Notes under the pieces: model-generated
Told to the model about the DNA's origin: nothing
The model's input: the letters and a program-made list of their open reading frames with translations, nothing else
Databases searched by the model: none
Position numbers and translations under genes: made by a program
DNA from: Bacteroidota bacterium
GTDB lineage: Bacteria > Bacteroidota > Bacteroidia > UBA4408
Length of the DNA: 64,000 nt
Direction: 5' to 3'
NCBI GenBank assembly: GCA_040385525.1
Contig: JAZKHE010000005.1
Location: forward strand, 10,819 to 74,818
In this document: positions 3-54,194 of the stretch, piece after piece
Position numbering within the stretch: position 1 is the first letter of the stretch
Layout: each line of letters starts with the position of its first letter

Positions 3-2141
3 AATACTTTTGTAGGTAATTTAGCCGGAGGTTTAACATCTATTGTTGGAGACAATAATACTTTTTTAGGTTCTTATGCTGGTTATTCAGGATCGAATAC
101 TGGTTCAACAAATACTTTTTTAGGTTATAATGTTGGTTCTAGCAACACTAGCGGAAGCAATAATACGTATGTTGGAGGCTATTCTGCATACAGCGCTACT
201 TCTGGTAATTTTAACACCGTAGTTGGTAATGATGCAGGTCAGAATTTAACAACAGGAGGAAATAATACATTTGTTGGTTATAACACTGGTTTTACAACTG
301 CAACACAACGAACTAACGCTACAGCCATTGGTTACAATACAACTGTTGATGCTGATAACGCAGTTGTTTTAGGCAATAATGCAAACGTAGGTATTGGAAT
401 AACTACACCAGGTAAATTTGCGGGCTCTACAAGGTATTTAAGTGTTGCAGCTATAACAACAGGTGTTTCTAACGGTACAGCTTCATTAGAATTGATTGGA
501 AATACAGCTTCATACAACACCCTAGCCTCTAAAATAGATTTTTTAGGAATAGTACCAATTTCAAATATAGCATCGCAAAGAGCAAGAATAGAAGCTCTAT
601 CTGGCGCGTCCATAACCTCTGCTGGACAATTAGCTTTTTCGACAAACAACGGAACTAATGCATCTTCAATTTTTGAACGTATGCGAATTACCGAAGCTGG
701 TAGAGTTGGTATTGGAACTACAGCGCCATCAACTGCTTCTTTATTCTCAGTAGGTGCTAGTAGCCAGTTTCAGGTATCATCAATAGGAGATATTGTTAGA
801 ATTAACAATGTACCTACAACTTGGCCAACCACAAATACAGCAGGATTTTTGCAAAACGATGGAACAGGTGCTTTAGCTTGGGGAGCTTTACCTTCTGGGT
901 CTAACGCATGGACAAAAACAGGAACATCAATTTATCAAACTGTATTAACTGATCTAGTTGGTATTGGAACAAGTTCGCCTGGATATAAACTGCATGTTTC
1001 AGATAATTCTGCAAACCCAGCAGTTTTTACAAGACAAGATGGAGCTGGTAACGCAATTCAAGGCAACGCTTATGGAACAGGAGATGGAGTTTATGGTGGG
1101 GCATCAGGAGGAGGTTTCGGTGTAAGGGCTAGAACTACAAGTACGGGAGCAGCTTTATTAGCTGAAGTTCAAGGTGGAGGAACAGGGCCAGCGGCAATTT
1201 TTTCTGGAGGTGCTGTTGGTATTGGAACATCATTGCCAACATTCGACCTGTCATTTAGAGGTAATGCAGCTAGTGATATTGGTATGGTAAGAAACACAGT
1301 TGCTGCAACTGCAGGAAATATACTAAGAATTGAAGCGGGTGGAGCAACATTAGCTTCAACTGATAGAAATGGTGGCGCATTAAATTTAGCTGCTGGTTTA
1401 TCTACGGGTACAGGAACGTCAACAATAAATTTTTTAACCTCTACACCCTCAACATTAACTGGAGCTACTGATAATTTACAATCTACAAAAATGACAATAA
1501 CAGGAGATGGTGATGTTGGTATTGGTGCAACACCAAACGTAAAATTTCATGTAAATGATGCTTCAGGGACAGTTACTGCTGTAAGATTTCAGATTGCAGG
1601 AACTACAAAATTTAGGTTAGATAATAATGGAGGAGTAAGTATTGGTAGCAATGTTGTTCCCCCTGCAAATGGATTGAATTTAGGTGGCGATGCAATTGTG
1701 CCTGCAGCAAACGACTATACTTATGCAGCAGCTAAAACAAAAACAGTAACAATACCTGCTATTGCATTTAATAATGTAAACGCAGCAATTACTTATGACG
1801 CTAATGGAGCCAGAATTTTTTATAATGGAGCCACTCCTGTATACGCTCCGTTAATACTTCCTATTGGTGCAATTATTACTGGTGTAAGGTGGATTATTTT
1901 TGATAACACAGTTGGGCAATCAAATACAGGTGGTTTATATCGTTTAGCTGAGGGCTCTACAACATCAACTTTAATTTCTAGTACCATCTCAGTAGATAAC
2001 GGAGCAGTTAATAATCATGCTGCTGTTCCGAATCACACAGTATTAGTTAATAATGCCTATACTTTAAAATGGACTCCAACTGATAATTCACAAAGTTTAT
2101 ATATGTGCACAATAACTTATACCGTATTACAAGCAGAATAA
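3..2141 (+). CDS. Phage-tail-fibre/YadA-like beta-repeat protein, 5'-truncated at the window edge
   Basis: Frame 3 is open from base 3 (NTFVGNLAGG...DNNTFLGSYAG...NNTYVGGYSA), so the ORF-track start at 492 is internal. Contains YadA-head-like NTxxGxxA repeats, six VGIG-type fibre modules and a C-terminal domain homologous to that of the next gene. Confidence 0.75.
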   Translation, partial: NTFVGNLAGGLTSIVGDNNTFLGSYAGYSGSNTGSTNTFLGYNVGSSNTSGSNNTYVGGYSAYSATSGNFNTVVGNDAGQNLTTGGNNTFVGYNTGFTTATQRTNATAIGYNTTVDADNAVVLGNNANVGIGITTPGKFAGSTRYLSVAAITTGVSNGTASLELIGNTASYNTLASKIDFLGIVPISNIASQRARIEALSGASITSAGQLAFSTNNGTNASSIFERMRITEAGRVGIGTTAPSTASLFSVGASSQFQVSSIGDIVRINNVPTTWPTTNTAGFLQNDGTGALAWGALPSGSNAWTKTGTSIYQTVLTDLVGIGTSSPGYKLHVSDNSANPAVFTRQDGAGNAIQGNAYGTGDGVYGGASGGGFGVRARTTSTGAALLAEVQGGGTGPAAIFSGGAVGIGTSLPTFDLSFRGNAASDIGMVRNTVAATAGNILRIEAGGATLASTDRNGGALNLAAGLSTGTGTSTINFLTSTPSTLTGATDNLQSTKMTITGDGDVGIGATPNVKFHVNDASGTVTAVRFQIAGTTKFRLDNNGGVSIGSNVVPPANGLNLGGDAIVPAANDYTYAAAKTKTVTIPAIAFNNVNAAITYDANGARIFYNGATPVYAPLILPIGAIITGVRWIIFDNTVGQSNTGGLYRLAEGSTTSTLISSTISVDNGAVNNHAAVPNHTVLVNNAYTLKWTPTDNSQSLYMCTITYTVLQAE

Positions 2142-2154
2142 TAAAAAGATAAAA

Positions 2155-5100
2155 ATGAAAAAAATATTTTATTTACTAATCATTGTTCTTTGCTTTGTTA
2201 AAAATACAGAGGCCCAAACCGAGTTAAACTCAACAGGAACTGGCGCTGCTTATGCATTGAGTTATCCTGCTGCGTTTACATATTCGTCGGGTATTACAAT
2301 TACTTTTAAAGCGCATACTGTAAACACTGGTGCGGCAACCCTTAATGTAAATGGTTTAGGAACTAAAGATGTATTTAAAAATGTTTCAAGTTCGTTAGCC
2401 TTTGGCGATATTGCGGCAGGTCAGTTTGTTACTGTTATTTACGATGGCACAAACTTTCAATTAACCACTCCAGTTTCTTCAAGTTCATCTCCATCGTGGG
2501 CTTTAGCTGGTAACACAGGTACTACAGCTGGCACAAACTTTATAGGAACAACGGATGCGGTTGATTTTGTTGCTAAAACAAATAATGTAGAGCGTTTAAG
2601 AATTTTGTCGGGTGGTAATGTGGGTATTGGAACTGGCAGCCCTGCTCCAGGAGCACAATTACATGTTGTTGGTGCTGCAAAAGCAGCAGTGTTAGAAGGT
2701 TCATATTCCAGTACGCTAATTACTTCTTCAATAATTACAGAGATTGTAAATAATGATGTAACCAATAACAACTATAGTTTAATAGGCTTTTCAGACCAAG
2801 GTACTAGTGGAACACCATCTGTAAAAATAGGTTCTCAAACTATTGACCACACAAACGATTATGGCGATTTTGTAGTGGGCACAAGAAGTGCTGTTGGTTT
2901 TACTGAAAAGATGAGGGTTACATCAGCTGGAAATATCGGGGTGGGAATTTCATCTCCAGTTTCGTTATTTACTATAAATAATGCAACTAATTCGCAACTA
3001 AGGTTATCCACAACCGCCTTGGGAAACACTTCGGCAGATGGTATGTTAATTGATTTGAACGGAACTTCGGGAAGTATTAATTTGTACGAAAACTTACCAT
3101 TGAGTTTTGCAACAAATAGTACAACTAAAATGACAATCCTAGCTGCTGGTAACGTTGGTATTGGAACAACAGGTCCTTCAAGTTTATTATCTGTAGGTGC
3201 AAGCAGTCAGTTTCAAGTAAGTGCAACGGGAGATATATTGAGAATTAAAAATTTAGCTTACACATGGCCTTCAACAGCTGTTGCTGGGGCACTTCAAAAC
3301 GATGGGACAGGAAATTTAACTTGGGGTGCTGTTGCGGGTACATTAAGTGGTGGAACGGCTAATAAAGTAACATACTGGACTGGAACAAACACAGTTTCGG
3401 CAAATAGTTTATTTTCTTGGGACAATACCAACGCACGTTTAGGAGTTGGAATAGCAGCGCCATTAAGCACATTGCATTTAGCTAATGCAAGCATACCTAC
3501 TTTCAATATGCAAAGTACGTCTACTTTAACTACTGCTGCATCAACTATTGCGCGCATTAATTTTCACGATTCACAAACTGCAGCATCAGGCCAAGCGTCT
3601 ATTTATTCAATAAGAGATGGCGCATCTGCTGGTGTAACAGATTTACCAACAGCTATTGCATTTTCTACAACCCCTGATGGAGCATCTTCGCCAGTGGAAG
3701 CAATGAGAATAAATAATCAAGGCTTTATAGGAATTGGTTCAACCTACCCACAACAAATTTTTAATCCATTAAGCATTCGTTCAACAGATGTAACAACAAA
3801 TGGTTCATCAGGAACATTTATTGATATTCACAACACAGCTAATGCAAACAATACATTTGCTGGTTTTAGGTTTAGAGCAACCGCTAATAGTGTGCCTTAT
3901 GATGATGAAGCTTTTCAAGCAGGTATATTTTTTAACAGAACAGACGGATTAAATTTTGGTAGAGGGGATATTATTATTGCGTCAAAAGGCACTGCAGATT
4001 ATAATAATGTAAATGCCCTTACTGATGCTAAAATGGTTATTAAAAGTGGTGGTCAAGTTGGTATAGGCGTGTTAAGTCCAATACATGCTTTAGATATTGA
4101 TGGAACAATAAATTTAAGACCAACAAATGGTAGAATTGCATTAAATGGTAATTTTGGTTTACCAGGCTATGTTCTAGTTTCTAACGGTGCAGGAAGTGCA
4201 AATTCATGGGCAGATCCGGCAGCATTGGGCACTAACTATTGGGCAAAAACAGGTGCTTCAGTATATCCAACTTCTATAACAAATAATGTTGCAATTGGAG
4301 CATTATCAGCCATTGCCAAGTTGGATGTTAGAGATATTAGTGTTACTACAACAGGAACTTTACCAGGCAACTTACATGTAATGTCAACTAATCCTCAAGC
4401 AATTGACATTGGAGGATCAATAAGTATAGGAGGTTATTACGATGACGCTGCAACAGGAGCTAGAATGTTTGCTACTATAGAAGCAAGAAAATCGAATTCA
4501 ACAACGGCTAATGCCGCAGGTTATTTGTTGTTTAAAACAAATAGTGGGGCCAGTACTATTGAAAGAATGCGAATTGATGCTGGAGGTAATGTAGGAATAG
4601 GAACTTCGTCTCCAGGAGCAACAAGATTAAATCTTACCATTCCAAATACCGATGCTACAAACCCTATTGGTTTAACAATAAATAATAATTATATCGGATC
4701 TAGTGATAAGTTTGGTATAGATGTAAATGTGGATGGAGCGGGTAGCGGACAAAAATTTGGAATAAGTTCAAGTGTTGTTGGTTTAGCTGCAGATGCAAGC
4801 GCAATTTATGGATACCAAGTGGCAATGACTCCAAACGGAACAGGAATAGCTCATGGTGTTTATTCTGTGCTATCAGCCGTGGGAACTGGAACTCGTTATG
4901 GTTTTTATAATAGCGTAGCGGCAGAAGCAACAAGTGTTAGCACAATATACGGAATTAGAAATATTTTATCAGGAGCTGCTGCAACAAAATATGGTATGTA
5001 TACAAGTGGTGAAGACAGAAATTATTTTAGTGGTAATGTAGGTATTGGTATAACGAATCCTTCATCAAAATTAGAAGTTGTTGGTGATGTTGAAATACCT

Positions 5101-20292: not shown

Positions 20293-21540
20293 ATGAAAAG
20301 AAGAGTTGTAGTTACAGGTTTAGGTGCTTTAACACCAATAGGAAATAACGTTACCGATTACTGGAATAATTTAATTGCAGGAAAAAGTGGCGCAGCAGCA
20401 ATTACAAAATTTGATACTTCAAAGTTTAAAACAAAATTTGCTTGCGAGTTAAAAGATTTTAATCCTTTAGATTTTTTAGAAAGAAGTGAAGCGCGAAAAA
20501 TGGATTTGTTTTCGCAATACGCTGTTATTGCTGCACAACAAGCCATTACAGATGCCGGCTTAGATGTTTCGCCAATTAATAAAGATAATGTTGGAGTTGT
20601 TTGGGGTTCGGGTAACGGCGGAATTTATACTTTTTATGAGCAAATGATGGAGTTTGCAAAAGGCGATGGAACACCAAGATTTAATCCTTTTTTTATTCCT
20701 AAAATTATAGTTGATATTGCTTCGGGTTGGATATCAATAAAGAATGGTTACCGTGGAATAAATCACACAACGGTTTCTGCATGTGCATCTTCTAACACTG
20801 CAATTGCAGATGCGTACAATTATATTTGTTGGAACAAAGCCGATGCAATTATTACGGGTGGCTCTGAGGCTGCAATAAATCCATCAGCTATTGGCGGATT
20901 TAATGCTTGTATGGCATTATCAACAAACAATAACGAACCAACAACTGCAAGCCGACCTTTTGATGTTAAGCGAGATGGGTTTGTGATGGGGGAGGGTGCC
21001 GGAGCGTTAGTTTTAGAAGAATTAGAACATGCAAAAAAGCGCGGTGCAAAAATTTATGCAGAAGTTGTAGGCGAAGGTATGAGTGCCGATGCTTTTCATT
21101 TAACTGCAACACACCCAGAAGGTGCTGGCGCAATTTTAGGAATGACAAAAGCATTAAAAGATGCAGGTATTTCTGCTGATAAAATCGATTATTTAAACGC
21201 GCACGCTACATCAACTCCGCTTGGAGATATTAGTGAATTAAAAGCTACGTATAACGTTTTTGGCGCTAATAAAAATTTAACTGTTGGCGCAACAAAATCT
21301 ATGACTGGCCATTTGTTAGGCGCAGCTGGTGCAATAGAAGCCATAGCAAGTATTTTAGCTGTTAAAAATAATATTATTCCACCAACTATAAATACTTCTG
21401 AACCCGATGCTGCTATACCACAAGGAATGCAAATTAGTTTTGGAAAAGCAATTGAAAAGAAAGTAGATTATGCAATGAGTAATACCTTTGGTTTTGGTGG
21501 ACACAATGCAACAACTATTTTTAAGAAGTTTGAAGAATAG
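20293..21540 (+). CDS. fabF: Beta-ketoacyl-ACP synthase II
   Basis: RRVVVTGLG, catalytic Cys in VSACASS, His in NAHATST and GHLLGAAG, and SNTFGFGGHNA. Not in an acpP-fabF-rnc context. Confidence 0.95.
   Translation: MKRRVVVTGLGALTPIGNNVTDYWNNLIAGKSGAAAITKFDTSKFKTKFACELKDFNPLDFLERSEARKMDLFSQYAVIAAQQAITDAGLDVSPINKDNVGVVWGSGNGGIYTFYEQMMEFAKGDGTPRFNPFFIPKIIVDIASGWISIKNGYRGINHTTVSACASSNTAIADAYNYICWNKADAIITGGSEAAINPSAIGGFNACMALSTNNNEPTTASRPFDVKRDGFVMGEGAGALVLEELEHAKKRGAKIYAEVVGEGMSADAFHLTATHPEGAGAILGMTKALKDAGISADKIDYLNAHATSTPLGDISELKATYNVFGANKNLTVGATKSMTGHLLGAAGAIEAIASILAVKNNIIPPTINTSEPDAAIPQGMQISFGKAIEKKVDYAMSNTFGFGGHNATTIFKKFEE
21486..21540 (+). repeat. Direct repeat copy 1 (fabF 3' end)
   Basis: 55 bp, collinear with 22194-22248 at 48/55 identity. 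Identical 30-bp core acaatgcaacaactatttttaagaagtttg at 21503-21532. Confidence 0.9.
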
Positions 21541-21670
21541 TTTTTTTTAAACGCAAAGTGCACAGTTACTTTTGGCGGAGAAGCGCAAAGATTTTTAAAA
21601 AATTCATTGAGTAAATTTTAATTTGCAAATTTTGACTTTTTTTTGTAACTTGTATAAAATTATTTTAGAA

Positions 21671-21895
21671 ATGACATTAGCTCAAAAAAAAATATTTCTT
21701 GCGCTACGATTGCTTCAAACAGAAAATAAAGAAATTTTAAAAGCTGTTGATTTATTATTTGAACAAGAAAATGAAAACTATGAACTTACTTTGGCTCAAA
21801 AAAACGAGTTAGACAAGCGTTTAAAGTCAATTGAGGATGGAACTGCTAAGTTTTTTACTTGGGAAGAAGCCAAAAAAAGAATTTTAAAGAAATAA
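21671..21895 (+). CDS. Addiction-module antitoxin (TIGR02574/Unstab_antitox-like)
   Basis: LTLAQKNELDKRLKSIEDGTAKFFTWEEAKKRI. Stop abuts the toxin ATG (TAAATG). Confidence 0.8.
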   Translation: MTLAQKKIFLALRLLQTENKEILKAVDLLFEQENENYELTLAQKNELDKRLKSIEDGTAKFFTWEEAKKRILKK

Positions 21896-22186
21896 ATGTA
21901 TCCCGTTATATTTTTAGAAAAAGCAATTGCAGAGCTAGAAGATGCTTTTGTTTATCTTGAGGAAAAAGAAAATAATTTGGGTTTGAAGTTTATTAAGAAA
22001 ACAGAAGAATATCTATCAATAATTCAGAAAAACCCTGCTATTTTTGTTGATGATTATAAAGGAGTAAGACAAGTAAGAATAGTTCCTTTTTCTTATATTT
22101 TGCGATATAAAGTATTTAAAAAATATCTTGCTATAATTCAAATTTATCATAGTAAACAAAATTCAATTAAAAAAAGGAAAGCCTAA
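21896..22186 (+). CDS. RelE/ParE family toxin
   Basis: FLEKAIAELEDAFVYLEEKENNLGLKF...PFSYILRYKV...IIQIYH. Confidence 0.85.
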   Translation: MYPVIFLEKAIAELEDAFVYLEEKENNLGLKFIKKTEEYLSIIQKNPAIFVDDYKGVRQVRIVPFSYILRYKVFKKYLAIIQIYHSKQNSIKKRKA

Positions 22187-22193
22187 ACTCAAT

Positions 22194-22248
22194 CTTTGGT
22201 TTTAGCGAATACAATGCAACAACTATTTTTAAGAAGTTTGTTGAATAA
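22194..22248 (+). repeat. Direct repeat copy 2, degenerate fabF C-terminal remnant
   Basis: Translates FGFSEYNATTIFKKFVE* versus FabF FGFGGHNATTIFKKFEE*. Identical core at 22211-22240. Confidence 0.9.
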
Positions 22249-22318
22249 GGTTAGTGTGCTAATTTAAAATTGTGCTGATGAACTAATTAACAATAGCAAA
22301 ACAAACGGTGAGTGGCTT

Positions 22319-22345
22319 TGTCATGTTGAGTGCAACGAAATATCT
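22319..22345. repeat. REP-like element (TGTCAT..TGAG...ACGAA..ATCT)
   Basis: tgtcatgttgagtgcaacgaaatatct, similar to 53516-53540. Confidence 0.5.
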
Positions 22346-22395
22346 GAGCGTTGGTTTTTGTGTAATTAATTTTTAATATATTTGATTTAGATATT

Positions 22396-24594
22396 ATGCG
22401 TAAAATTAAGATACTCGCTTTTTTATTTTCTTTTATTTGTTGTTTAAATTTTGCAAAAGCGCAAAGTATAAATTTAGCAGAGATGGATACTGCTTTTTGC
22501 CAATGTGTTGAAACATCTAGCTGGAAGGACACAGTCGCTATTTATAATCTCGTTATTAAAAAAGATAATAATTTTAGTAATGTTTTTGATACAGTATTAA
22601 GTAAATGGCAAAAATATAACAAAGATGAAAAATTTTCTGATGTATTTTGGTTAGCATTTAAGGTTATTGTACCCAAAAAATATATAAATTATCCTCTTGT
22701 TTTGCGTACATACTCATCACATTTGATTCCAATGGAATTTTATTTTAATGGTAAAAGAATTAAAGGTATAAGAGGCGTTGTTGGTAATAATATAAAAGAA
22801 GAAAAAACTTTTGAAGCACACCATTATTTTGACAACTCATTTGCTATTTCTTTCGCTAATGAGATTAACTACATTTATGTAAGAGCATCTAATTTTAATG
22901 AAGAAACAATACCGTCAAGTTTTTTTAGTTTTGAAAAGCAATCAACTTTTAATGCTGAATTTAAAAATGAAATTACAGGAGATTACAGTAACTTGATTAT
23001 TGTAGTTTTTCTTGTTTCTGTTTTTTTAATTTATCTTTTACTTTATTTATTTGGATTAAAAGAAAAGAAATACATTTTTGGAGCTCTTTTTTTTCTGTTT
23101 TTTTCTTTTGTTTTTATCCCATCTATTTCACTTTTTTCTACAGGAGTTTTTTCTGGTTTTGGAACCTTTGATTATTTTTTTTTCTCTCTTTTAATAGTCA
23201 TTCCTTTGTTTTTTTTACTTTTCGTTTATTCCTTTTTTAAAAGTGTAGTGAAAAGAAAATGGATTTTTACTATACATAGTATTATGTATCCTTTGGCTAT
23301 TTTATGTGCAATTTCAGTTGTTACAGATTATTTTGAAGAATATAGTGAGTTTGCAGCGGTCTTTATTTTTGGACTTTATTTATTTACTTTTTTTGATGTA
23401 ATTAGAATATTAATAAATCAAATAAAGGCAAGGACACAAAGTGCTGTTGTCATATTATTCGGCTTCATTGTTACTATTTCATTAATGATTACGTATATTA
23501 TATTTTCCTTTTTTTTGAGTGAAATTGAATCACAACTCGTTGACGTTTATATGAGCATAGCTGTTTTAATTATGTTTTTACCAATACCTTTTTCTATATT
23601 AATCGCCTTAATACGAGATTATGTTGGTACAAACAAAGGCTTGGTTTTGCAATTGGCAAAGGTTGAAGAATTAACTGCTTTAACATTAAAGGAGCAAGCA
23701 GAAAAACAACAAATGCTCAGCGAGCAAAATACCATTTTAGAAAAGCAAGTAAATGAACGCACTAAAGAAATTGCAAATCAAAAGCATATTGTTGAAGAAA
23801 TTAACAAAGAAATTACTGATAGCATAAACTATGCTCAAAAAATACAATCAACTTTAATGGCGTCAACTAAATTGTTAAACGACAATTTAAAAAACGAGGA
23901 GTTGGAAAAAGATTATTTAATTTTATATAAACCAAAAGATATTGTAAGTGGTGATTTTTACTGGGCACATAAACATGAAAATAGTTTTGTTTTAATAACA
24001 GCCGATTGTACAGGTCATGGTGTTCCTGGTGCTTTTATGAGTTTGCTATGCGTAAGTTATTTAAACGAAGTAGTAAAAGAACAAAAAACAGTACAACCCA
24101 ATAAAATTTTTGATGCTGTTCGTGCAAAAATTGTTTCAAATTTTACAACTGGAGAAAATAGCGAACGAAAAGATGGTATGGATGCTGTTTGCTGTAAGTT
24201 TAATTTTGATGAAAATATTTTGGAGTATGCAGCAGCCAACAATCCTATAGTATTACTTATTCCTGATGAAAATAACAATTATATTTTAGAAGAAATAAAG
24301 CCTGATAAAATGCCCGTTGGTGTTAATCACGATGGAAATTATTTGCCATTTAATTCAGGCACAAAACTATTAAAAAAAGGCACTATTGTTTATACTTTTA
24401 GTGATGGATATGTTGATCAATTTGGTGGTGAAAGAGGAAAGAAGTTTATGTATAAACAATTAAGAGAATTATTATTGTCGATTGCTAATTTGCCATTAAC
24501 TAAACAAAAAGAAATTTTAGATTCAACAATCGAAAGCTGGAAAGGTAGTTCAGAACAAGTTGATGATATTTTAGTAGTTGCTGTTAAAGTTTAA
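22396..24594 (+). CDS. Membrane sensor (extracellular domain, about 7 TM helices, coiled coil) fused to a SpoIIE/PP2C phosphatase
   Basis: Signal peptide, hydrophobic 7TM region, then DSINYAQKIQ, PKDIVSGDFYW, ADCTGHGVPGAFMS, DGMD, FSDGYVDQFGG and QVDDIL. Confidence 0.9.
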   Translation: MRKIKILAFLFSFICCLNFAKAQSINLAEMDTAFCQCVETSSWKDTVAIYNLVIKKDNNFSNVFDTVLSKWQKYNKDEKFSDVFWLAFKVIVPKKYINYPLVLRTYSSHLIPMEFYFNGKRIKGIRGVVGNNIKEEKTFEAHHYFDNSFAISFANEINYIYVRASNFNEETIPSSFFSFEKQSTFNAEFKNEITGDYSNLIIVVFLVSVFLIYLLLYLFGLKEKKYIFGALFFLFFSFVFIPSISLFSTGVFSGFGTFDYFFFSLLIVIPLFFLLFVYSFFKSVVKRKWIFTIHSIMYPLAILCAISVVTDYFEEYSEFAAVFIFGLYLFTFFDVIRILINQIKARTQSAVVILFGFIVTISLMITYIIFSFFLSEIESQLVDVYMSIAVLIMFLPIPFSILIALIRDYVGTNKGLVLQLAKVEELTALTLKEQAEKQQMLSEQNTILEKQVNERTKEIANQKHIVEEINKEITDSINYAQKIQSTLMASTKLLNDNLKNEELEKDYLILYKPKDIVSGDFYWAHKHENSFVLITADCTGHGVPGAFMSLLCVSYLNEVVKEQKTVQPNKIFDAVRAKIVSNFTTGENSERKDGMDAVCCKFNFDENILEYAAANNPIVLLIPDENNNYILEEIKPDKMPVGVNHDGNYLPFNSGTKLLKKGTIVYTFSDGYVDQFGGERGKKFMYKQLRELLLSIANLPLTKQKEILDSTIESWKGSSEQVDDILVVAVKV

Positions 24595-24617
24595 TTGGCG
24601 AATAATCTAATTTTTAT

Positions 24618-24702
24618 TCTTTGCTCTTAAATCTTGCTTCTTGTATCTCAACACTACTAATCCAAAAACTCATAACTCAACACTCATAATTTATAACTCA
24701 AT
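24618..24702. repeat. Heptamer arrays (TCT-N4)x5 and (ACT-N4)x5 between convergent genes
   Basis: tctttgc tcttaaa tcttgct tcttgta tctcaac (24618-24652) and actcata actcaac actcata atttata actcaat (24668-24702). Confidence 0.75.
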
Positions 24703-25678
24703 ATTCTCTTTCCATTAACTTGTGTGCGAGTCTATCTAGCTCGTATTTGTTTTCGGTTGAAACGTTTACCAACTTTAAATAGTTTAGCGCTATTTCAAAA
24801 TGATTGTTCATTTCTTGCTCAGCTAATTCTCTAACGTTTAGTTCATTGTAGATATTGGTTACGGAAGTAACTTTTTCTTTTGCGTTAAATTCTTTTTTAT
24901 TTATCCAGTTGTTTAGTTCTTTGCTTTGCTCTGCATTACAAAGCTCTATAGCTTTTAATAATAAAAATGTTTTTTTGTTACTTATTATATCGCCACCAAC
25001 TTGTTTACCAACTTTTTCAGCATCGCCAAATACATCTAAAATGTCATCTTGCAATTGAAAAGCAATACCTATGTGCATTCCAAAATGATAAATCCAGTTA
25101 GCGTTTTCTTCGCTGGCATTACCAATGTATGCGCCAATTTTTAATGCGCCACCTAAAAGCACTGCTGTTTTTAAGCGAATCATTTCTATGTAATCATCAA
25201 TTTTAACATGACTTTGTGTTTCAAAATTCATGTCTAATTGTTGTCCTTCGCACACTTCAACAGCGGTTTGAAAAAAGCAATCTAACACTTGTTTTGTGTT
25301 AGTAGTATTTGCCAATAAAAATTGCTGACATGCTTTTACAAACATGGTATCGCCACTTAAAATTGCAATATTGCTATTCCATTTTTCATGAACGGTTTCT
25401 TTACCTCTGCGCAATGGAGCGTTGTCCATTATATCGTCGTGCAACAACGTAAAGTTGTGAAACAGCTCTATTCCTAATGCTGCTGGCACTGCATGTTTTA
25501 CGTTGCCACCAAACATTTCGCAACCTAACAAAACCAAAACAGGACGAATTCTTTTTCCGCCTAATTGCAATGTATACTGAATGGGTTCGTAAAGTTCTAT
25601 TGGTTTTGAAACAATAGAATTTGATAATGAATTAATTTCAATATCTAATAAATGGCGAAGTTCTTTGGCTTTGTACAA
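24698..25678 (-). CDS. Polyprenyl (FPP/GGPP-type) diphosphate synthase
   Basis: GGKRIRP, FHNFTLLHDDIMD (first Asp-rich motif), VCEGQQLDM, IRLKTAVL and AFQLQDDILD. TTG start. Confidence 0.93.
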   Translation of the reverse strand: MYKAKELRHLLDIEINSLSNSIVSKPIELYEPIQYTLQLGGKRIRPVLVLLGCEMFGGNVKHAVPAALGIELFHNFTLLHDDIMDNAPLRRGKETVHEKWNSNIAILSGDTMFVKACQQFLLANTTNTKQVLDCFFQTAVEVCEGQQLDMNFETQSHVKIDDYIEMIRLKTAVLLGGALKIGAYIGNASEENANWIYHFGMHIGIAFQLQDDILDVFGDAEKVGKQVGGDIISNKKTFLLLKAIELCNAEQSKELNNWINKKEFNAKEKVTSVTNIYNELNVRELAEQEMNNHFEIALNYLKLVNVSTENKYELDRLAHKLMEREY

Positions 25679-25710
25679 AATGTGCTTTTATTAATTTAAG
25701 AGTTAAACAA

Positions 25711-26646
25711 TTAAATAATAAAATGGTTGTTGTTTATCACAATTTTTAATCCTTCATCAAGTGGTAAAGGCGCTCTAGGCAACAACTCTTTCATTTTGCT
25801 AATGTCGGGTTTGCGTCTAGTCATATCGCCTTCTTCTAAAGGTGGTAAGTGTACAATTTTAGATTTTGAATTAGTAATCGAAATTATTTTTTTTGCTAAA
25901 TCTAAAATAGTTACTTCGTTTTCTCCACCAATATTTACAACATCGTTTACAAATTTATTTTTGTAAAACGCTTCTAAACAAGCATCAACATTATCGTCAA
26001 CAAAACAAAAAGTACGCGTTTGGCTACCATCGCCATATACTTCTATATCTTCGTTTTTAAGCGCTTTCGATATAAATTTAGAGATAACAAAATCTTTACT
26101 TTGTTTTGGTCCGTAGGTATTAAAAAATCTAAAAATAGTGTACTCTAAACCAAACTCTTGGTGATACGATTTTAAAAATGCTTCGCCAACATTTTTTACA
26201 ATTGCATAAGGTAGTCTTGAGTTTAATGGAGTTGTATCTTCGTTTTGAGGAAACTCTACTGGCTCACCATAAACTTCTGATGACGACGAAAAGAAAACTC
26301 TTTTTACACCGGTGTTTTTTGCGGCAGTTAAAACATGTTTTATTCCGCTAATATCTTCTAAAACCCAAACAGGATTATCAAGTGTTCGTTTTACACCAAC
26401 TAGTGCAGCGTAATGAAAAACATAGTCGAACGAGTGAGCAACAAAAATGCTTGTAATTTCTCGCCAATCGTTTACGTTTGCTTTTATAAAACGAATATTG
26501 TTGTGCGCTGAAGTTGGAATTTTATCGATAGAACCCGTTACTAACTTATCTACAATAACAACAAAATTATCAGGATTGCTCGCTAATTTTTCTGCAACAG
26601 CGCTGGCTATAAAACCCGCACCACCTGTAACTAAAATTTTACTCAT
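25711..26646 (-). CDS. NAD-dependent nucleotide-sugar epimerase/dehydratase (UDP-glucuronate decarboxylase-like)
   Basis: VTGGAGFIAS, SSSSEVYG, YxxxK (YAIVK), RFFNTYGP and GDGSQTRTFCFVDD. Confidence 0.88.
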   Translation of the reverse strand: MSKILVTGGAGFIASAVAEKLASNPDNFVVIVDKLVTGSIDKIPTSAHNNIRFIKANVNDWREITSIFVAHSFDYVFHYAALVGVKRTLDNPVWVLEDISGIKHVLTAAKNTGVKRVFFSSSSEVYGEPVEFPQNEDTTPLNSRLPYAIVKNVGEAFLKSYHQEFGLEYTIFRFFNTYGPKQSKDFVISKFISKALKNEDIEVYGDGSQTRTFCFVDDNVDACLEAFYKNKFVNDVVNIGGENEVTILDLAKKIISITNSKSKIVHLPPLEEGDMTRRKPDISKMKELLPRAPLPLDEGLKIVINNNHFII

Positions 26647-27506
26647 TATTTTATTTGATTAAGTAAGTAATCGCCATAACCACTTTTTAAAAGCGGTGTT
26701 GATATTTCTTTTAATTGTTCTTTGTTTATAAAACCCATTCGGTAAGCAATTTCTTCAATGCAACCAATTTTTAAACCTTGTCTTTCTTCAATTACTTGAA
26801 CAAATTGTCCGGCTTGCATTAACGATGCAAATGTGCCAGTATCTAACCAAGCTGTACCTCTATCTAAAATACCAACTTTTAATTTACCCATCTCTAAATA
26901 CTTTTTATTTACATCAGTAATTTCGTATTCGCCCCGCGGACTAGGTTTTAAATTTTTTGCAATTTCTATTACTGAGTTGTCATAAAAATACAAACCTGGT
27001 ACCGCATAATTTGATTTTGGTTTTACAGGTTTTTCTTCAATAGAAATTACTTTGTTATTGTCGTCAAATTCTACAACTCCATAACGCTCTGGGTCTGATA
27101 CATGGTATGCAAAAACTACGCCGCCATCAGGATTTTGATGTTGTTGTAATAATCTGCCTAAGCCTTGACCATAAAAAATATTATCGCCTAAAACTAGAGC
27201 AACTTTATCGTTACCAATAAATTTTTCTCCAATAACAAATGCTTGTGCTAATCCATTAGGAACTTCTTGCACAGCGTAACTAAAGCTACACCCTAATTTT
27301 TTTCCATCGCCCAAAAGTTTTTCAAAATTTGGTAAATCACTTGGTGTAGAAATAATTAATATTTCTTTTATGCCTGCCATCATTAATAACGATAGCGGAT
27401 AATAAATCATTGGTTTGTCGTAAACTGGCATTAACTGTTTGCTAACCGCTAAAGTTAGAGGGTGTAACCTAGTTCCAGAACCTCCTGCTAAAATTATTCC
27501 TTTCAT
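26646..27506 (-). CDS. rfbA: Glucose-1-phosphate thymidylyltransferase
   Basis: [46 protein letters not shown] and WLDTGT. Confidence 0.97.
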
Positions 27507-27520
27507 AAAAATTGTGTTTA

Positions 27521-29944
27521 TTAAATATTTTCTGAGCCAATTATCTTTTCTGTTTTTTCTATTTCGAGTTTGTCTAAATCAATATCTTCTTCTTCGTCAA
27601 AAATTTCTATCAATGGTTCTTTGGTTAAAGCTTTTGTCATTAATCGTTTTTCTAGCGAAAGCAATATGGAAGGAAGTAATAGTAAGTTAGTAATTAACGA
27701 AACTAAAAGTGTTACCGAAATTAAAATGCCTAAGGCAACAGTTCCTCCAAAACTTGATGCTGCAAAAATAGAGAAACCAAAAAACAAAATTACGTTGGTG
27801 TAAACCATACTTAAACCTGTGCCTTTTATTGCGCCAGAAACTGCACTTGATGCATCGCCAGCTAATTTTTTCTTTAATTGATTTCTATATTCTGCTAAAA
27901 TATAAATGGTACCGTCTGATGCAATTCCAAATGCAATACTAAAAACTAATATGGTAGTTGGTTTTATATAAATATCCATAAAACCCATAATTCCTGCAGT
28001 TATCACTAACGGAATTAAACACGGTAATTTTGATAATACAATTATGGCAACCGATCTAAATAAAACAATACCGATTAATAAAATTAAAAACACTTCAATG
28101 CCTAAACTCACAAATAAGTGATGGAAAAGATAATCGTTTCCTTTTAAAAATCGCACGCTATGTCCCGTAATATCTACAGTATATTCTTTCGGGTCGAAAA
28201 TAGAATCTACTTTTGGTTTTATTTCGCTTAATAGTTGTTTCATTTTTACTGAACCAACATCTTTCATTTGAAAACTTACACGCGTTTTTTGTTTTGTGCT
28301 ATCTAAAAATGCTTTAAACTTATCGTTTGATCCTTCTACGCTTGTTGAATAATCAGAGAGTTTTTTTAACTCTGTACTTCCTGGTAAAATAAAAAATTTA
28401 GGTTTGCCGTCTTTTTCTGCTTGGTAAGCAAACTTCACAAGTCTAACAACTGATAGTGGAGATGTGAAAATATCGCCATATTCGCCAATCATTTTTTCGA
28501 GCGCTTTTATTTTGTATAACGTTTTGGCATTATCTGCAAATACACCGTTTTCTTTTTTTGTATCGATAGAAAATTCAAAAGGAAGCACACCGTTAAAATT
28601 AGCTTCAAAAAATTTTAAGTGTGTGTAAACCGGATCTTTTTTTGGTAAATCATCAACCACAAATCCAATTGGTTTTACCATCCACATGCCAACAAACGAA
28701 ATAATGGTTACGCCAGCAATTGATAAATAAATTGCTCTTCTTTTGTTGTGAACCCAATAATCTATTTTATCTAAAAGTTTATTTATATTTTTTCCGTCTA
28801 AGTGTTTTGTTTGTTTTAACGACGGAACTTTTAAGTAGCTAAAAATAATTGGGATAAAAATTAAAGCAACTGCATTGGTAAGTAAAACGTTTACTCCAGC
28901 AACAATACCAAATTGAACTAACAACTCGCTATTAGTAAAATAAAACACAAAAAAACCTATTGATGTAGTTACGTTTGCCAAAAAGTTAGACATGCCGACT
29001 TTTTCGATAGTACGCGTTAAACCTCTAATTTTGCTACCGTGTACTCTAAGTTCTTCTTGGTATTTATTAATTAAAAATATACAGTTTGGTATACCAATAA
29101 TTATAATTAAAGGCGGAATTAAACCTGTAAGAATTGTTATTTTATAACCAAATAAATACATGGTTCCTAACGACCAAATAACGCCAATAACACAAACAAT
29201 TAGCGACCAAAATACCGCGTTAAACGAACGGAAGAAAATCCACAACGTTATAATTGTTACTAAAAAAGCCAAGCCCATAAACAAGCCCAACTCTCCACTA
29301 ACGTTTCGCATATATTCGCTTCTAATATATGGCAAGCCAGAGTAATGAATTTCTACGTTATTGTTTTTAGCAAACTCATCACCCATTGTTCTAATTTGCT
29401 TAACAATGTCTAATCTATTTTTAGAGTTTAAATCTTTTTTGTTAAACGTAACTGCCATCAAGGTGCAGTTTAACGAGTCGTTGTAAACTATTCCTTTGTA
29501 AAATGGATAAGATAAAATTTGTTTTTTTACACTATCTAATTCTTCTTGCGTTTTTAAGGTGCCGTTTATTAATGGGAAGTAATCTAGCTTTTGAAGCGAA
29601 TCATTTTTTTTAAGACCTAAAATTTTATCAATAGATAAAACGTTTTGAATTCCGCCAACAGTTTTAACTGAGTCGGCTAATCTTTGCCATTCGTTAAAAG
29701 TTTTTAGTTTAAATAAATCATCAGATTTATATCCAATAACCATTACGTTTCCGTCTTCACCAAAAACCTTTTTAAAATCGTTGTAAGCAATTTCTGCTTT
29801 ATCGTCTTCTGGAAGTATTTTTACAAAATCGTAAGAGAGCTGTATTTTAGTTGCAAAAAAACCAAAAACACAAGTTATAATAAATAAAACACTTAAATAA
29901 GCGAATCTGTTTCGTAAAAAATTTCTAGCTAAAATCGACCACAT
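27521..29944 (-). CDS. MMPL/RND family transporter
   Basis: Two repeats of TM plus large periplasmic loop plus 5 TM, with [15 protein letters not shown] and [12 protein letters not shown] at 29944 preferred over TTG at 29965, which overlaps a promoter motif. Confidence 0.88.
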
Positions 29945-53661: not shown

Positions 53662-53901
53662 ATGACTACTAACGCACTTCGTAAAAAAGTTATTGAATAT
53701 GTAAGTAATGCTGAACCAAACGTGTTGGAGGCAGTTTACAAAATACTACAAGTAATTGAAGGCGACGACTCAAGTAGTTTAATGACTGAAAGCCAAAAAG
53801 CAGAAGTTGAAAAACGATCTACATTATTAAGAGCAGGTAAACTAAAAACAACTTCTTGGGCTGATGTAAAAAAAAATGCTCACGCCAGTAGAAAAAAATA
53901 A
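53662..53901 (+). CDS. Addiction-module-type antitoxin
   Basis: MTESQKAEVEKR...GKLKTTSWADVKK. TAATG overlap with the toxin. Confidence 0.75.
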   Translation: MTTNALRKKVIEYVSNAEPNVLEAVYKILQVIEGDDSSSLMTESQKAEVEKRSTLLRAGKLKTTSWADVKKNAHASRKK

Positions 53902-54194
53902 TGGCAGTTTATAAAATTTCTTTTGCTACTCTAGCCGAAACAGAAATTATAGATGCTTATAATTTTTATGAAGATAAACAGAAAAACCTTGGTGAGCGTT
54001 TTTTGACGACAATACAAACTTCAATAAACAGCATCAAGCTAAATCCTTTTATTTATCAGCGAAAGTATAAACATTTTAGAGAGGCATTCGTAAAAAAATT
54101 CCCTTACTTCTTAGTTTACGAAATTATTGGAGATACTATTGTGGTTGTATCCGTTTTTCACACAAGCAAAAACCCTAAGTATAAAACCAGCTAA
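53901..54194 (+). CDS. RelE/ParE family toxin
   Basis: AETEIIDAYNFYEDKQKNLGERF...KKFPYFLVYEI...VVSVFHTSKNP. Confidence 0.88.
   Translation: MAVYKISFATLAETEIIDAYNFYEDKQKNLGERFLTTIQTSINSIKLNPFIYQRKYKHFREAFVKKFPYFLVYEIIGDTIVVVSVFHTSKNPKYKTS

What the first reader, a model, noticed from the sequence alone, without database searches (positions are those of the whole stretch)
21486..22248. Integrase-less TA islet inserted at the 3' end of fabF with a target duplication
Seen: the last 55 bp of fabF reappear 708 bp downstream (48/55, 30 bp identical, still reading ...NATTIFKKF.E*), and only an antitoxin-ParE pair lies between. Established: Campbell-type integration into a gene 3' end restores the gene and leaves a duplicated tail; such targets are usually tRNA or tmRNA genes. 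Inference: fabF is an attB site, and this is either a minimal element mobilised in trans or a larger island eroded to its addiction module.
Basis: partly seen in the sequence, partly recalled or inferred. Interest (0 to 1): 0.65.

Follow-up and report, generated by a model that had tools for sequence, protein, structure and literature searches.

The report
Toxin-antitoxin cassette inserted at fabF end
A 0.6-kb toxin-antitoxin gene pair with no recombinase of its own was inserted at the end of a second fabF gene by a single crossover that duplicated the gene's tail, and a metagenomic relative still shows the unoccupied site, so this is a real but fairly ordinary "insertion with long target duplication".

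Summary
The last 54 nt of a fabF gene (21486-21539) recur at 22194-22247 (48/54, with a 30-nt identical core). Only a PF09720 antitoxin and a ParE-like toxin lie between the copies.

- **The gene:** it is a second fabF paralogue. The acpP-fabF-rnc copy lies on another contig.
- **Relatives with the cassette:** Logan metagenome contigs from two wastewater runs (X3, X4; fabF about 93% identical) carry the same cassette. Their repeat is longer, at 54 nt of tail plus about 64 nt downstream.
- **Empty site:** run X12 has no trace of the cassette. It holds one intact tail that runs straight on to the downstream ispB-like gene.
- **Crossover pattern:** against that empty site, the right repeat is native on its right and diverged on its left, and the left repeat is the reverse. 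This is the signature of one reciprocal crossover with an already diverged copy of the same locus.
- **No recombinase:** none lies in or near the islet, and no larger element shares the core.
- **Other loci:** three more loci in this genome (one carrying an AbiEii gene pair) and a ParE locus in another genus show the same architecture.
- **Closest known class:** "insertion with long target duplication", described for restriction-modification genes.
- **Open question:** whether a site-specific recombinase or homologous recombination made the crossover.

The parts
20293..21540 (+). fabF2: second beta-ketoacyl-ACP synthase II paralogue, intact, ends ...NATTIFKKFEE-TAG
   Evidence: Pfam PF00109 and PF02801. 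The canonical acpP-fabF-rnc copy is at G000:C2, 65% identical.
21486..21540 (+). Left repeat (attL side): the functional fabF tail. The 30-nt identical core is 21503-21532.
21541..21604 (+). Segment X: 64 nt after the fabF stop. In TA-bearing relatives it is also duplicated after the second tail (X'). In the window it has no second copy.
   Evidence: Two distinct X4 contigs cover it, one coming from fabF and one from ParE plus the pseudo-tail. It shows no significant fold (z 0.65).
21605..22193 (+). Unique inserted DNA (589 nt, 25% G+C against 34% for the window): promoter region plus the TA operon
   Evidence: Absent from run X12 at 80% likeness or more. G+C.
21671..21895 (+). Antitoxin, 'putative addiction module component' family. 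A TTG at 21650 is the start used by an automatic gene call.
   Evidence: PF09720 34 bits; TIGR02574 32.5 bits; gene call
21896..22186 (+). ParE/RelE-superfamily toxin, 96 aa. Its start abuts the antitoxin stop.
   Evidence: PF05016 30.5 bits. No close homologue among 5.8 billion proteins by word search. At most 33% identity within the family.
22194..22248 (+). Right repeat (attR side): displaced, non-functional fabF tail (...FGFSEYNATTIFKKFVE-TAA). Core 22211-22240.
22249..24703 (+). Lineage-specific 2455-nt segment (27.7% G+C): a REP-like motif at 22318-22345 and a 7TM-SpoIIE/PP2C gene at 22396-24594. Relatives lack it and have X' plus about 114 nt instead.
   Evidence: The X12 4632-nt contig joins tail+X, then 114 nt, then 24704-29092. 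X3 and X4 contigs also break at 24704. All relatives' alignments stop at 22248.
24698..25678 (-). Polyprenyl synthetase (ispB-like) gene, convergent with fabF2. It is the conserved right flank of the site.
   Evidence: ORF; 93.2% identical in the X12 contig

Best explanation
A small bicistronic type II toxin-antitoxin cassette (own promoter region, PF09720 antitoxin, ParE-like toxin; 589 nt of unique DNA) entered the chromosome by one reciprocal crossover. The crossover was between the 3' end region of fabF2 and an already diverged (homeologous) copy of that same region carried on the incoming DNA. It fell in the roughly 30-nt block where the two partners were identical. It left fabF2 intact and produced direct repeats: 54 nt in the window, and 54 + 64 nt in relatives. 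Those steps are shown.

The following steps are inferred. The cassette encodes no recombinase, so the crossover was made by host functions. The most likely one is RecA-type homologous recombination acting on a circular or 'ends-in' DNA. Such DNA can arise when the islet loops out between its own repeats in a donor cell. The toxin-antitoxin pair then penalises loss by recombination between the repeats, which would explain why so unstable a structure persists across lineages about 7% diverged. In the window's lineage a further 2.45-kb segment with a SpoIIE gene now follows the displaced tail directly.
For: - **Repeat and cargo:**
- **Empty site:** run X12 has zero coverage of 21664-22260 at 80% likeness or more. 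It has a 4632-nt contig (depth 7.3) holding one true-type tail (no listed difference from the window at 21486-21532), then X, 114 nt and the ispB side at 93.2%.
- **Occupied relatives:** X3 and X4 contigs give fabF-tail-X-antitoxin and ParE-pseudo-tail-X' as separate contigs.
- **Reciprocal pattern against the empty site:** X' on the right repeat differs from native X at 2-3 of 64 positions, but the left 19 nt of that repeat differ at 6. X on the left repeat differs at about 9 of 64, while the left 47 nt of its tail differ at 2.
- **Clustered mismatches** in the window's repeat, p about 0.02, and cassette G+C of 25% against 34-37% in the flanks.
- **No recombinase nearby**, and three tyrosine recombinases genome-wide.
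- **Recurrence with unrelated cores:** tails of a Sua5/YrdC gene (AbiEii pair inside), an antiporter gene and a nucleoside phosphorylase gene in the same genome, with exact cores of 30, 45 and 25 nt. A ParE locus in another genus is flanked by a 199-nt duplicated gene tail.
Against: - No excised circle, empty junction within a TA-bearing population, or transfer event was seen. Only assembled contigs were available, many at depth 2-8, and the difference tables were truncated.
- The link from X' to ispB in TA-bearing relatives is inferred from the TA-free contig.
- An identical core with diverged arms is also what a site-specific integrase leaves.
- How the first copy of the tail came to sit on the cassette is unexplained.
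- Both the window's and the relatives' displaced tails end in TAA while the empty site has TAG. This fits one ancient insertion better than repeated movement.
- The window's repeat ends exactly at the stop codon, where the lineage-specific segment begins. One insertion followed by a random replacement does not explain that.
Confidence: 0.55

Rival explanations
1. One reading: the islet is what remains of, or a satellite of, an integrase-encoding integrative element that uses the fabF2 tail as attB. It would be a cis-mobilizable element (CIME) or a mini-element moved in trans by a site-specific recombinase.
For: An identical 30-nt core with diverged arms and a restored gene end is the classical attL/attR picture. 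CIMEs that keep attL and attR but have lost their integration genes are documented (PMC5704250). One non-Xer-sized tyrosine recombinase exists in the genome.
Against: There is no integrase in the 64-kb window. No second locus carries the core in the genome. No element with the tail motif was found in GTDB species genomes, JGI metagenomes or IMG/VR; the eight hits were unrelated. The homology to the target spans about 118 nt and runs 64 nt past the stop codon. The insert has no spare DNA, with 7 nt between the ParE stop and the repeat. Three other loci in the genome show the same architecture with unrelated cores, which one recombinase would not serve.
Confidence: 0.2
2. The insertion created the duplication itself: staggered breaks followed by fill-in, or a replication template switch. 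This is what has been proposed for 'insertion with long target duplication' of restriction-modification genes. The two copies would have been identical at first and have since drifted.
For: The class is documented, with long and variable duplications, no mobility genes, and repeats overlapping gene 3' ends (PMC2853133). Repeat lengths here vary between loci, from 25 to 199 nt.
Against: Drift should affect the whole non-functional right repeat. Yet its X' part is nearly identical to the native empty-site sequence while its left 19 nt are 6/19 different. The left repeat's X part is the diverged one. Mismatches in the window's repeat are clustered around an identical core.
Confidence: 0.15
3. Artefact or purely local event: misassembly, or a tandem duplication of the fabF end.
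For: The only full-length copies (the window and the Logan contig of run X1) probably come from the same sample.
Against: Both junctions are present in contigs from independent studies (X3, X4, X2, X5). The DNA between the repeats is unrelated to the flanks and has 25% G+C. A tandem duplication would repeat the intervening genes.
Confidence: 0.02

Closest known systems
Insertion with long target duplication of restriction-modification gene complexes (Nobusato et al. 2000, as cited in Furuta, Abe and Kobayashi 2010, PMC2853133)
   Same: A small 'addiction'-type gene unit with no transposase or integrase. It is flanked by direct repeats longer than 30 bp that are a duplicated piece of the local target, often overlapping a gene's 3' end. 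An empty-site genome holds one copy. Repeat lengths vary from locus to locus.
   Different: The cargo is a type II toxin-antitoxin pair, not restriction-modification genes, and the host is a Bacteroidota lineage. Here the comparison with the empty site indicates a reciprocal crossover with a pre-diverged copy rather than a fresh duplication. In my limited literature search I found no report of TA cargo in this class.
Cis-mobilizable elements (CIMEs): decayed integrative elements at gene 3' ends (reviewed in PMC5704250)
   Same: [quoted passage not shown] The displaced gene end sits on the far side.
   Different: No parent ICE or IME, cognate integrase or tandem accretion was found. The element is far smaller (0.7 kb) and has no gene remnants.
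Chromosomal type II ParDE/RelBE-like toxin-antitoxin loci acquired horizontally
   Same: The antitoxin-then-toxin order, abutting genes, low G+C, and patchy distribution (9 of 27 family genomes have any homologue).
   Different: Most described chromosomal TA loci are not reported with a duplicated target and a matching empty site.

Membership tests
Insertion with long target duplication (criteria of PMC2853133) | Target duplication longer than 30 bp flanking the insert as direct repeats | tested here: met
   54 nt in the window; about 118 nt in relatives X3 and X4
Insertion with long target duplication (criteria of PMC2853133) | Insert shorter than 20 kb with no mobility genes | tested here: met
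   589 nt unique, holding only the antitoxin and ParE genes
Insertion with long target duplication (criteria of PMC2853133) | An empty-site genome with one copy of the repeated sequence and similarity on both sides | tested here: met
   X12: one tail+X, then the ispB side at 93.2%, and no TA coverage. The fabF side is joined through a 329-nt contig that overlaps by about 20 nt.
Insertion with long target duplication (criteria of PMC2853133) | Cargo is a restriction and a modification gene | tested here: not met
   The cargo is a toxin-antitoxin pair. This is the same mode of insertion with a different class of addiction genes.
CIME / decayed integrative element | Retained attL and attR that include the target gene's end | tested here: met
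CIME / decayed integrative element | Descent from, or mobilisation by, an element with a cognate site-specific recombinase | tested here: inconclusive
   None was found in the window, the genome, GTDB, JGI or IMG/VR. Absence from these collections is not proof.
Type II toxin-antitoxin, ParE/RelE superfamily with PF09720 antitoxin | Toxin matches the family model above its curated cut-off | tested here: met
   PF05016 30.5 bits against a cut-off of 23. No NCBIfam match.
Type II toxin-antitoxin, ParE/RelE superfamily with PF09720 antitoxin | Small antitoxin gene immediately upstream in the same operon | tested here: met
   PF09720 34 bits and TIGR02574 32.5 bits. Its stop at 21895 abuts the toxin ATG at 21896.
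Type II toxin-antitoxin, ParE/RelE superfamily with PF09720 antitoxin | Toxin arrests growth and the antitoxin neutralises it | not testable with these tools
   Needs expression experiments.
Integron gene cassette | attC hairpin at the cassette end and an integron integrase | tested here: not met
   Folds of the repeat regions are no better than shuffles (z 0.55-0.65). There is no Rfam match. The tyrosine recombinases are two of about 305 aa and one of 396 aa, none of them nearby.
Transposon / insertion sequence | Terminal inverted repeats, a short fixed target duplication and a transposase | tested here: not met
   No inverted repeat at the islet's ends and no transposase ORF. The duplication is 54-118 nt.

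The most novel reading that the evidence does not exclude
Addiction modules in this bacterial family spread as recombinase-free cassettes that carry a captured, slightly diverged copy of a host gene's 3' end. They loop out between their flanking repeats, and host homologous recombination re-inserts them at the same gene in related genomes, at the longest identical block (25-45 nt here). The toxin then punishes loss. This would supply the missing mechanism for the 'insertion with long target duplication' seen for restriction-modification genes, and would make it a general way in which selfish gene pairs move.
Probability: 0.3. Interest if true: 0.7.

Novelty: new member of a known kind. Interest (0 to 1): 0.42.

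Why it matters
How chromosomal toxin-antitoxin loci get into genomes without any mobility gene is rarely documented at base-pair level. This locus offers an occupied site, a matching empty site and a variant occupied site in related uncultured bacteria. Their pattern of differences points to a single crossover with a diverged copy of the target. It extends to toxin-antitoxin genes a mode of insertion described for restriction-modification genes, whose mechanism is still unknown. It also suggests a simple testable route: loop-out between the repeats, then homologous re-insertion. The same architecture at three more loci in this genome and in another genus makes a systematic survey worthwhile. 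It is not a new kind of system.

Tried and rejected
- **Same-genus genome for an empty site.** The species collection holds none. The nearest fabF homologue among 5.8 billion proteins is 72% identical.
- **Close ParE relatives and their contexts.** The word search found only the window's own protein. A JGI metagenome scan with ParE peptides found nothing. Exact-protein look-ups returned only the Logan contig of the probable source sample.
- **A larger integrase-bearing element with the same core.** The degenerate tail pattern gave 4 hits in GTDB genomes and 4 in JGI, none with any similarity to the window, and none in IMG/VR. The cassette DNA is absent from the other 26 genomes of the order.
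- **An RNA or terminator role for segment X or the displaced tail.** There is no Rfam match and no terminator-like site. The folds are not better than shuffles.
- **An 'empty' allele of the window's own arrangement (fabF followed directly by the SpoIIE segment) in run X10.** The 203-nt contig carries the pseudo-tail, so it is an occupied site at low depth.
- **Mapping loose-end 30-mers of relatives' contigs onto the genome.** Uninformative.
- **The second ParE pair in the window (53662-54194).** It has no flanking duplication.
- **Synteny of the fabF2 orthologue in another genus.** None.
- **Papers on fabF as an attachment site.** The top-ranked 12 of 203 papers retrieved held no mention of fabF, so none pairing it with attB was seen.

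Full report
**1. The observation**

- The region holds a 415-aa beta-ketoacyl-ACP synthase II gene (20293-21540), then a 74-aa and a 96-aa gene, then a 732-aa gene.
- The repeat finder reports one two-copy direct repeat of 54 nt, at 21486-21539 and 22194-22247. It is 89% identical with 708-nt spacing.
- The central 30-mer occurs exactly twice in the window, against 0 in 100 shuffles. It occurs twice in the whole genome.
- The second copy still reads FGFSEYNATTIFKKFVE-TAA.
- The two genes between the copies are a PF09720/TIGR02574 'addiction module component' antitoxin and a PF05016 ParE-like toxin. Their genes abut, and the ParE stop lies 7 nt before the second repeat.
- One correction: the genome has the usual acpP-fabF-rnc cluster on another contig. 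The window's gene is a second paralogue (65% protein identity), called fabF2 here.

**2. Relatives**

No genome of the same genus is in the species collection. No close fabF2 or ParE homologue is in the protein collection. The JGI contigs hold nothing either. Public runs do hold near relatives as Logan contigs.

- **Relatives with the cassette.** Two wastewater runs (X3, X4) and a biofilm run (X2) hold an organism with fabF2 about 93% identical to the window. It has the same cassette and the same displaced tail.
- **Where the alignments end.** Every alignment from these relatives ends exactly at 22248, the last base of the displaced tail's stop codon.
- **A longer repeat.** In X4, two different contigs cover the 64 nt that follow the fabF2 stop (21541-21604, segment X). 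One arrives from fabF2 and continues into the antitoxin. The other arrives from ParE and the displaced tail. So in these relatives the direct repeat is the tail plus X, about 118 nt, and the unique insert is 21605-22193 (589 nt).

**3. The empty site**

- Run X12 has no coverage at all of 21664-22260, even at 80% likeness.
- It does have a 4632-nt contig at depth 7.3. Its bases 2-124 are one tail plus X. The next 114 nt match nothing in the window. Bases 239-4627 are window 24704-29092 at 93.2% identity.
- The tail in this contig shows no listed difference from the window's functional tail at 21486-21532. It is therefore the true gene end, not the decayed copy.
- The contig starts inside the GFGGHN-coding block, which many organisms in the sample share (depth 80-90). 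That explains the contig break.
- A 329-nt fabF2 contig abuts it with an overlap of about 20 nt.
- This is the unoccupied site: fabF2, its tail, X, 114 nt, then the convergent ispB-like gene.

**4. What kind of event**

I compared the occupied X4 alleles with the X12 empty site.

| Repeat in X4 | Left part vs native | Right part (X or X') vs native |
|---|---|---|
| Right repeat (displaced tail + X') | 6 of the first 19 nt differ | 2-3 of 64 positions differ |
| Left repeat (functional tail + X) | 2 of the first 47 nt differ | about 9 of 64 positions differ, plus the last two codons |

- The two repeats are therefore reciprocal mosaics of a native and a foreign version of the same 118-nt region, joined in the block where the versions are identical.
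- This is what one reciprocal crossover between the chromosome and a diverged copy of the same locus leaves.
- It is not what a fresh fill-in duplication followed by drift would leave, because drift would not spare the X' half of a non-functional copy.
- In the window the seven mismatches are likewise clustered around the 30-nt core (p about 0.02).
- The cassette has 25% G+C, against 34% for the window and 37% for fabF2.

**5. Who made the crossover**

- The cassette has room for nothing but its two genes, and the 64-kb window has no recombinase.
- The genome has three tyrosine recombinases: two Xer-sized and one of 396 aa on another contig.
- The core has no third copy in the genome.
- A degenerate pattern for the tail found only unrelated sequences in GTDB genomes and JGI contigs, and nothing in IMG/VR.
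- The homology between the partners extends well beyond what a gene-restoring attP needs.
- A scan of the genome for isolated direct repeats sitting on gene 3' ends found three more loci of the same build:
  - the tail of a Sua5/YrdC gene, repeated 1348 nt downstream, with an AbiEii toxin gene and a partner gene between the copies;
  - the tail of an antiporter-like gene, repeated 966 nt downstream, with one gene between;
  - the end of a purine nucleoside phosphorylase gene, repeated 1066 nt downstream, with one gene between.
- The exact cores at these loci (30, 45 and 25 nt) share no motif.
- In another genus of the family, a homologous antitoxin-ParE pair is flanked by a 199-nt duplicate of the tail of the convergent downstream gene. 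That repeat also has a well-conserved core and decayed edges. A third genus shows a 34-nt flanking repeat.
- Locus-specific repeats of variable length argue against one site-specific enzyme and for a homology-driven process.
- I therefore favour host homologous recombination on a circular or ends-in DNA. This is inference: an integrase acting in trans is not excluded.

**6. Age and movement**

- The cassette is shared by lineages about 7% apart, so the insertion is old.
- Its coding part is more conserved than its flanks:

| Region | Differences from the window | Source |
|---|---|---|
| 21740-21941 in X3 | 0-1 | |
| 21809-22149 in X4 | 8 in 341 | |
| fabF2 and the ispB side | about 7 per 100 | |

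- Several wastewater runs hold cassette pieces 98-99% identical to the window, alongside fabF pieces about 90% identical.
- One activated-sludge contig puts the cassette behind a different upstream sequence.
- These are hints of later exchange, but they come from short, low-depth contigs that cannot be linked to one organism.
- Against repeated movement: the displaced tails of both lineages end in TAA, while the empty site has TAG.

**7. The window's own peculiarity**

- The window's lineage lacks X' and the 114 nt.
- In their place stands a 2455-nt, 27.7% G+C segment (22249-24703) with a REP-like motif and a 7TM-SpoIIE gene. It runs from the base after the displaced tail's stop codon to the ispB stop codon.
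- No third tail or X copy lies at its far end.
- Contigs from the same study as the source sample share this junction.
- Two histories are possible. The segment replaced the intergenic DNA after the cassette arrived. Or the cassette integrated into an allele that already had the segment, which would explain why the window's repeat stops at the stop codon. I could not decide between them.
- The genome holds 43 SpoIIE-domain matches, against 9-22 in its relatives, so gain of such genes is common here.

**8. Comparison with what is known**

- The closest description is 'insertion with long target duplication'. This means restriction-modification gene units inserted with long, variable target duplications and no mobility genes, some overlapping gene 3' ends. 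They were identified by empty-site comparison, and their mechanism is unknown (PMC2853133).
- The present case meets every structural criterion of that class except the cargo.
- Cis-mobilizable elements (PMC5704250) look alike, but they imply a parent integrative element, for which there is no evidence here.
- It is not an integron cassette or a transposon.

**9. Verdict**

- The reading as a Campbell-type insertion is confirmed by an empty site.
- The reading of fabF as an integrase attachment site is unsupported.
- This is a new member of a known kind. Its interest is moderate. That interest comes from the clean three-allele comparison, the recurrence of the architecture, and the chance to test the mechanism.

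Noticed in passing
G000:C6:291530-292947 (same genome, outside the window): The last ~65 nt of a Sua5/YrdC-family gene (...SGSFKIIRK-TAA) recur 1348 nt downstream, and both copies end at TAA. Between them lie two overlapping minus-strand genes. One is an AbiEii nucleotidyltransferase toxin (PF08843, 31.5 bits). The other is a 169-aa partner with no family match. This is a second recombinase-free TA islet with a duplicated gene tail.
   Followed up: partly
G000:C6:63350-64400 and G000:C4:101633-102730: Two further small inserts, each one gene of unknown family, are bounded by a duplicated gene tail. One is at an antiporter-like gene (45 nt exact, 966-nt spacing). The other is at a purine nucleoside phosphorylase gene (25 nt exact including the stop, 1066-nt spacing).
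   Followed up: partly
L039 (G011:C90) 925-1123 and 1992-2190: In another genus of the family, a homologous antitoxin-ParE pair is flanked by a 199-nt direct repeat (80% identical, with a core of about 115 nt holding 4 mismatches). The functional copy of the repeat is the 3' end of the convergent 392-aa downstream gene.
   Followed up: partly
window 22249-24703: A 2455-nt low-G+C segment with a 7TM-SpoIIE/PP2C gene is present only in the window's lineage. Relatives go from the displaced fabF tail through about 178 nt to the ispB stop. The genome has 43 SpoIIE-domain matches against 9-22 in family relatives.
   Followed up: partly
window 22318-22345: A REP-like motif, TTGTCATGTTGAGTGCAACGAAATATCT, has at least four further copies on other contigs of the genome. 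It has very high k-mer depth in several metagenomes, so it is shared by many organisms.
   Followed up: partly
window 53662-54194: A second PF09720-like antitoxin plus ParE-like pair (28% identical toxin) lies between a glutathione-peroxidase-like gene and an Mrp/ApbC-like gene. It has no flanking duplication.
   Followed up: yes
run X11, contig of 432 nt: An activated-sludge contig joins a copy of 22312-22359 (the REP-like region), 41 unknown nt, and then 21641-21980 (the cassette, 96% identical). The cassette therefore sits behind a different upstream sequence there. This could be another insertion site or a permuted or tandem form.
   Followed up: no
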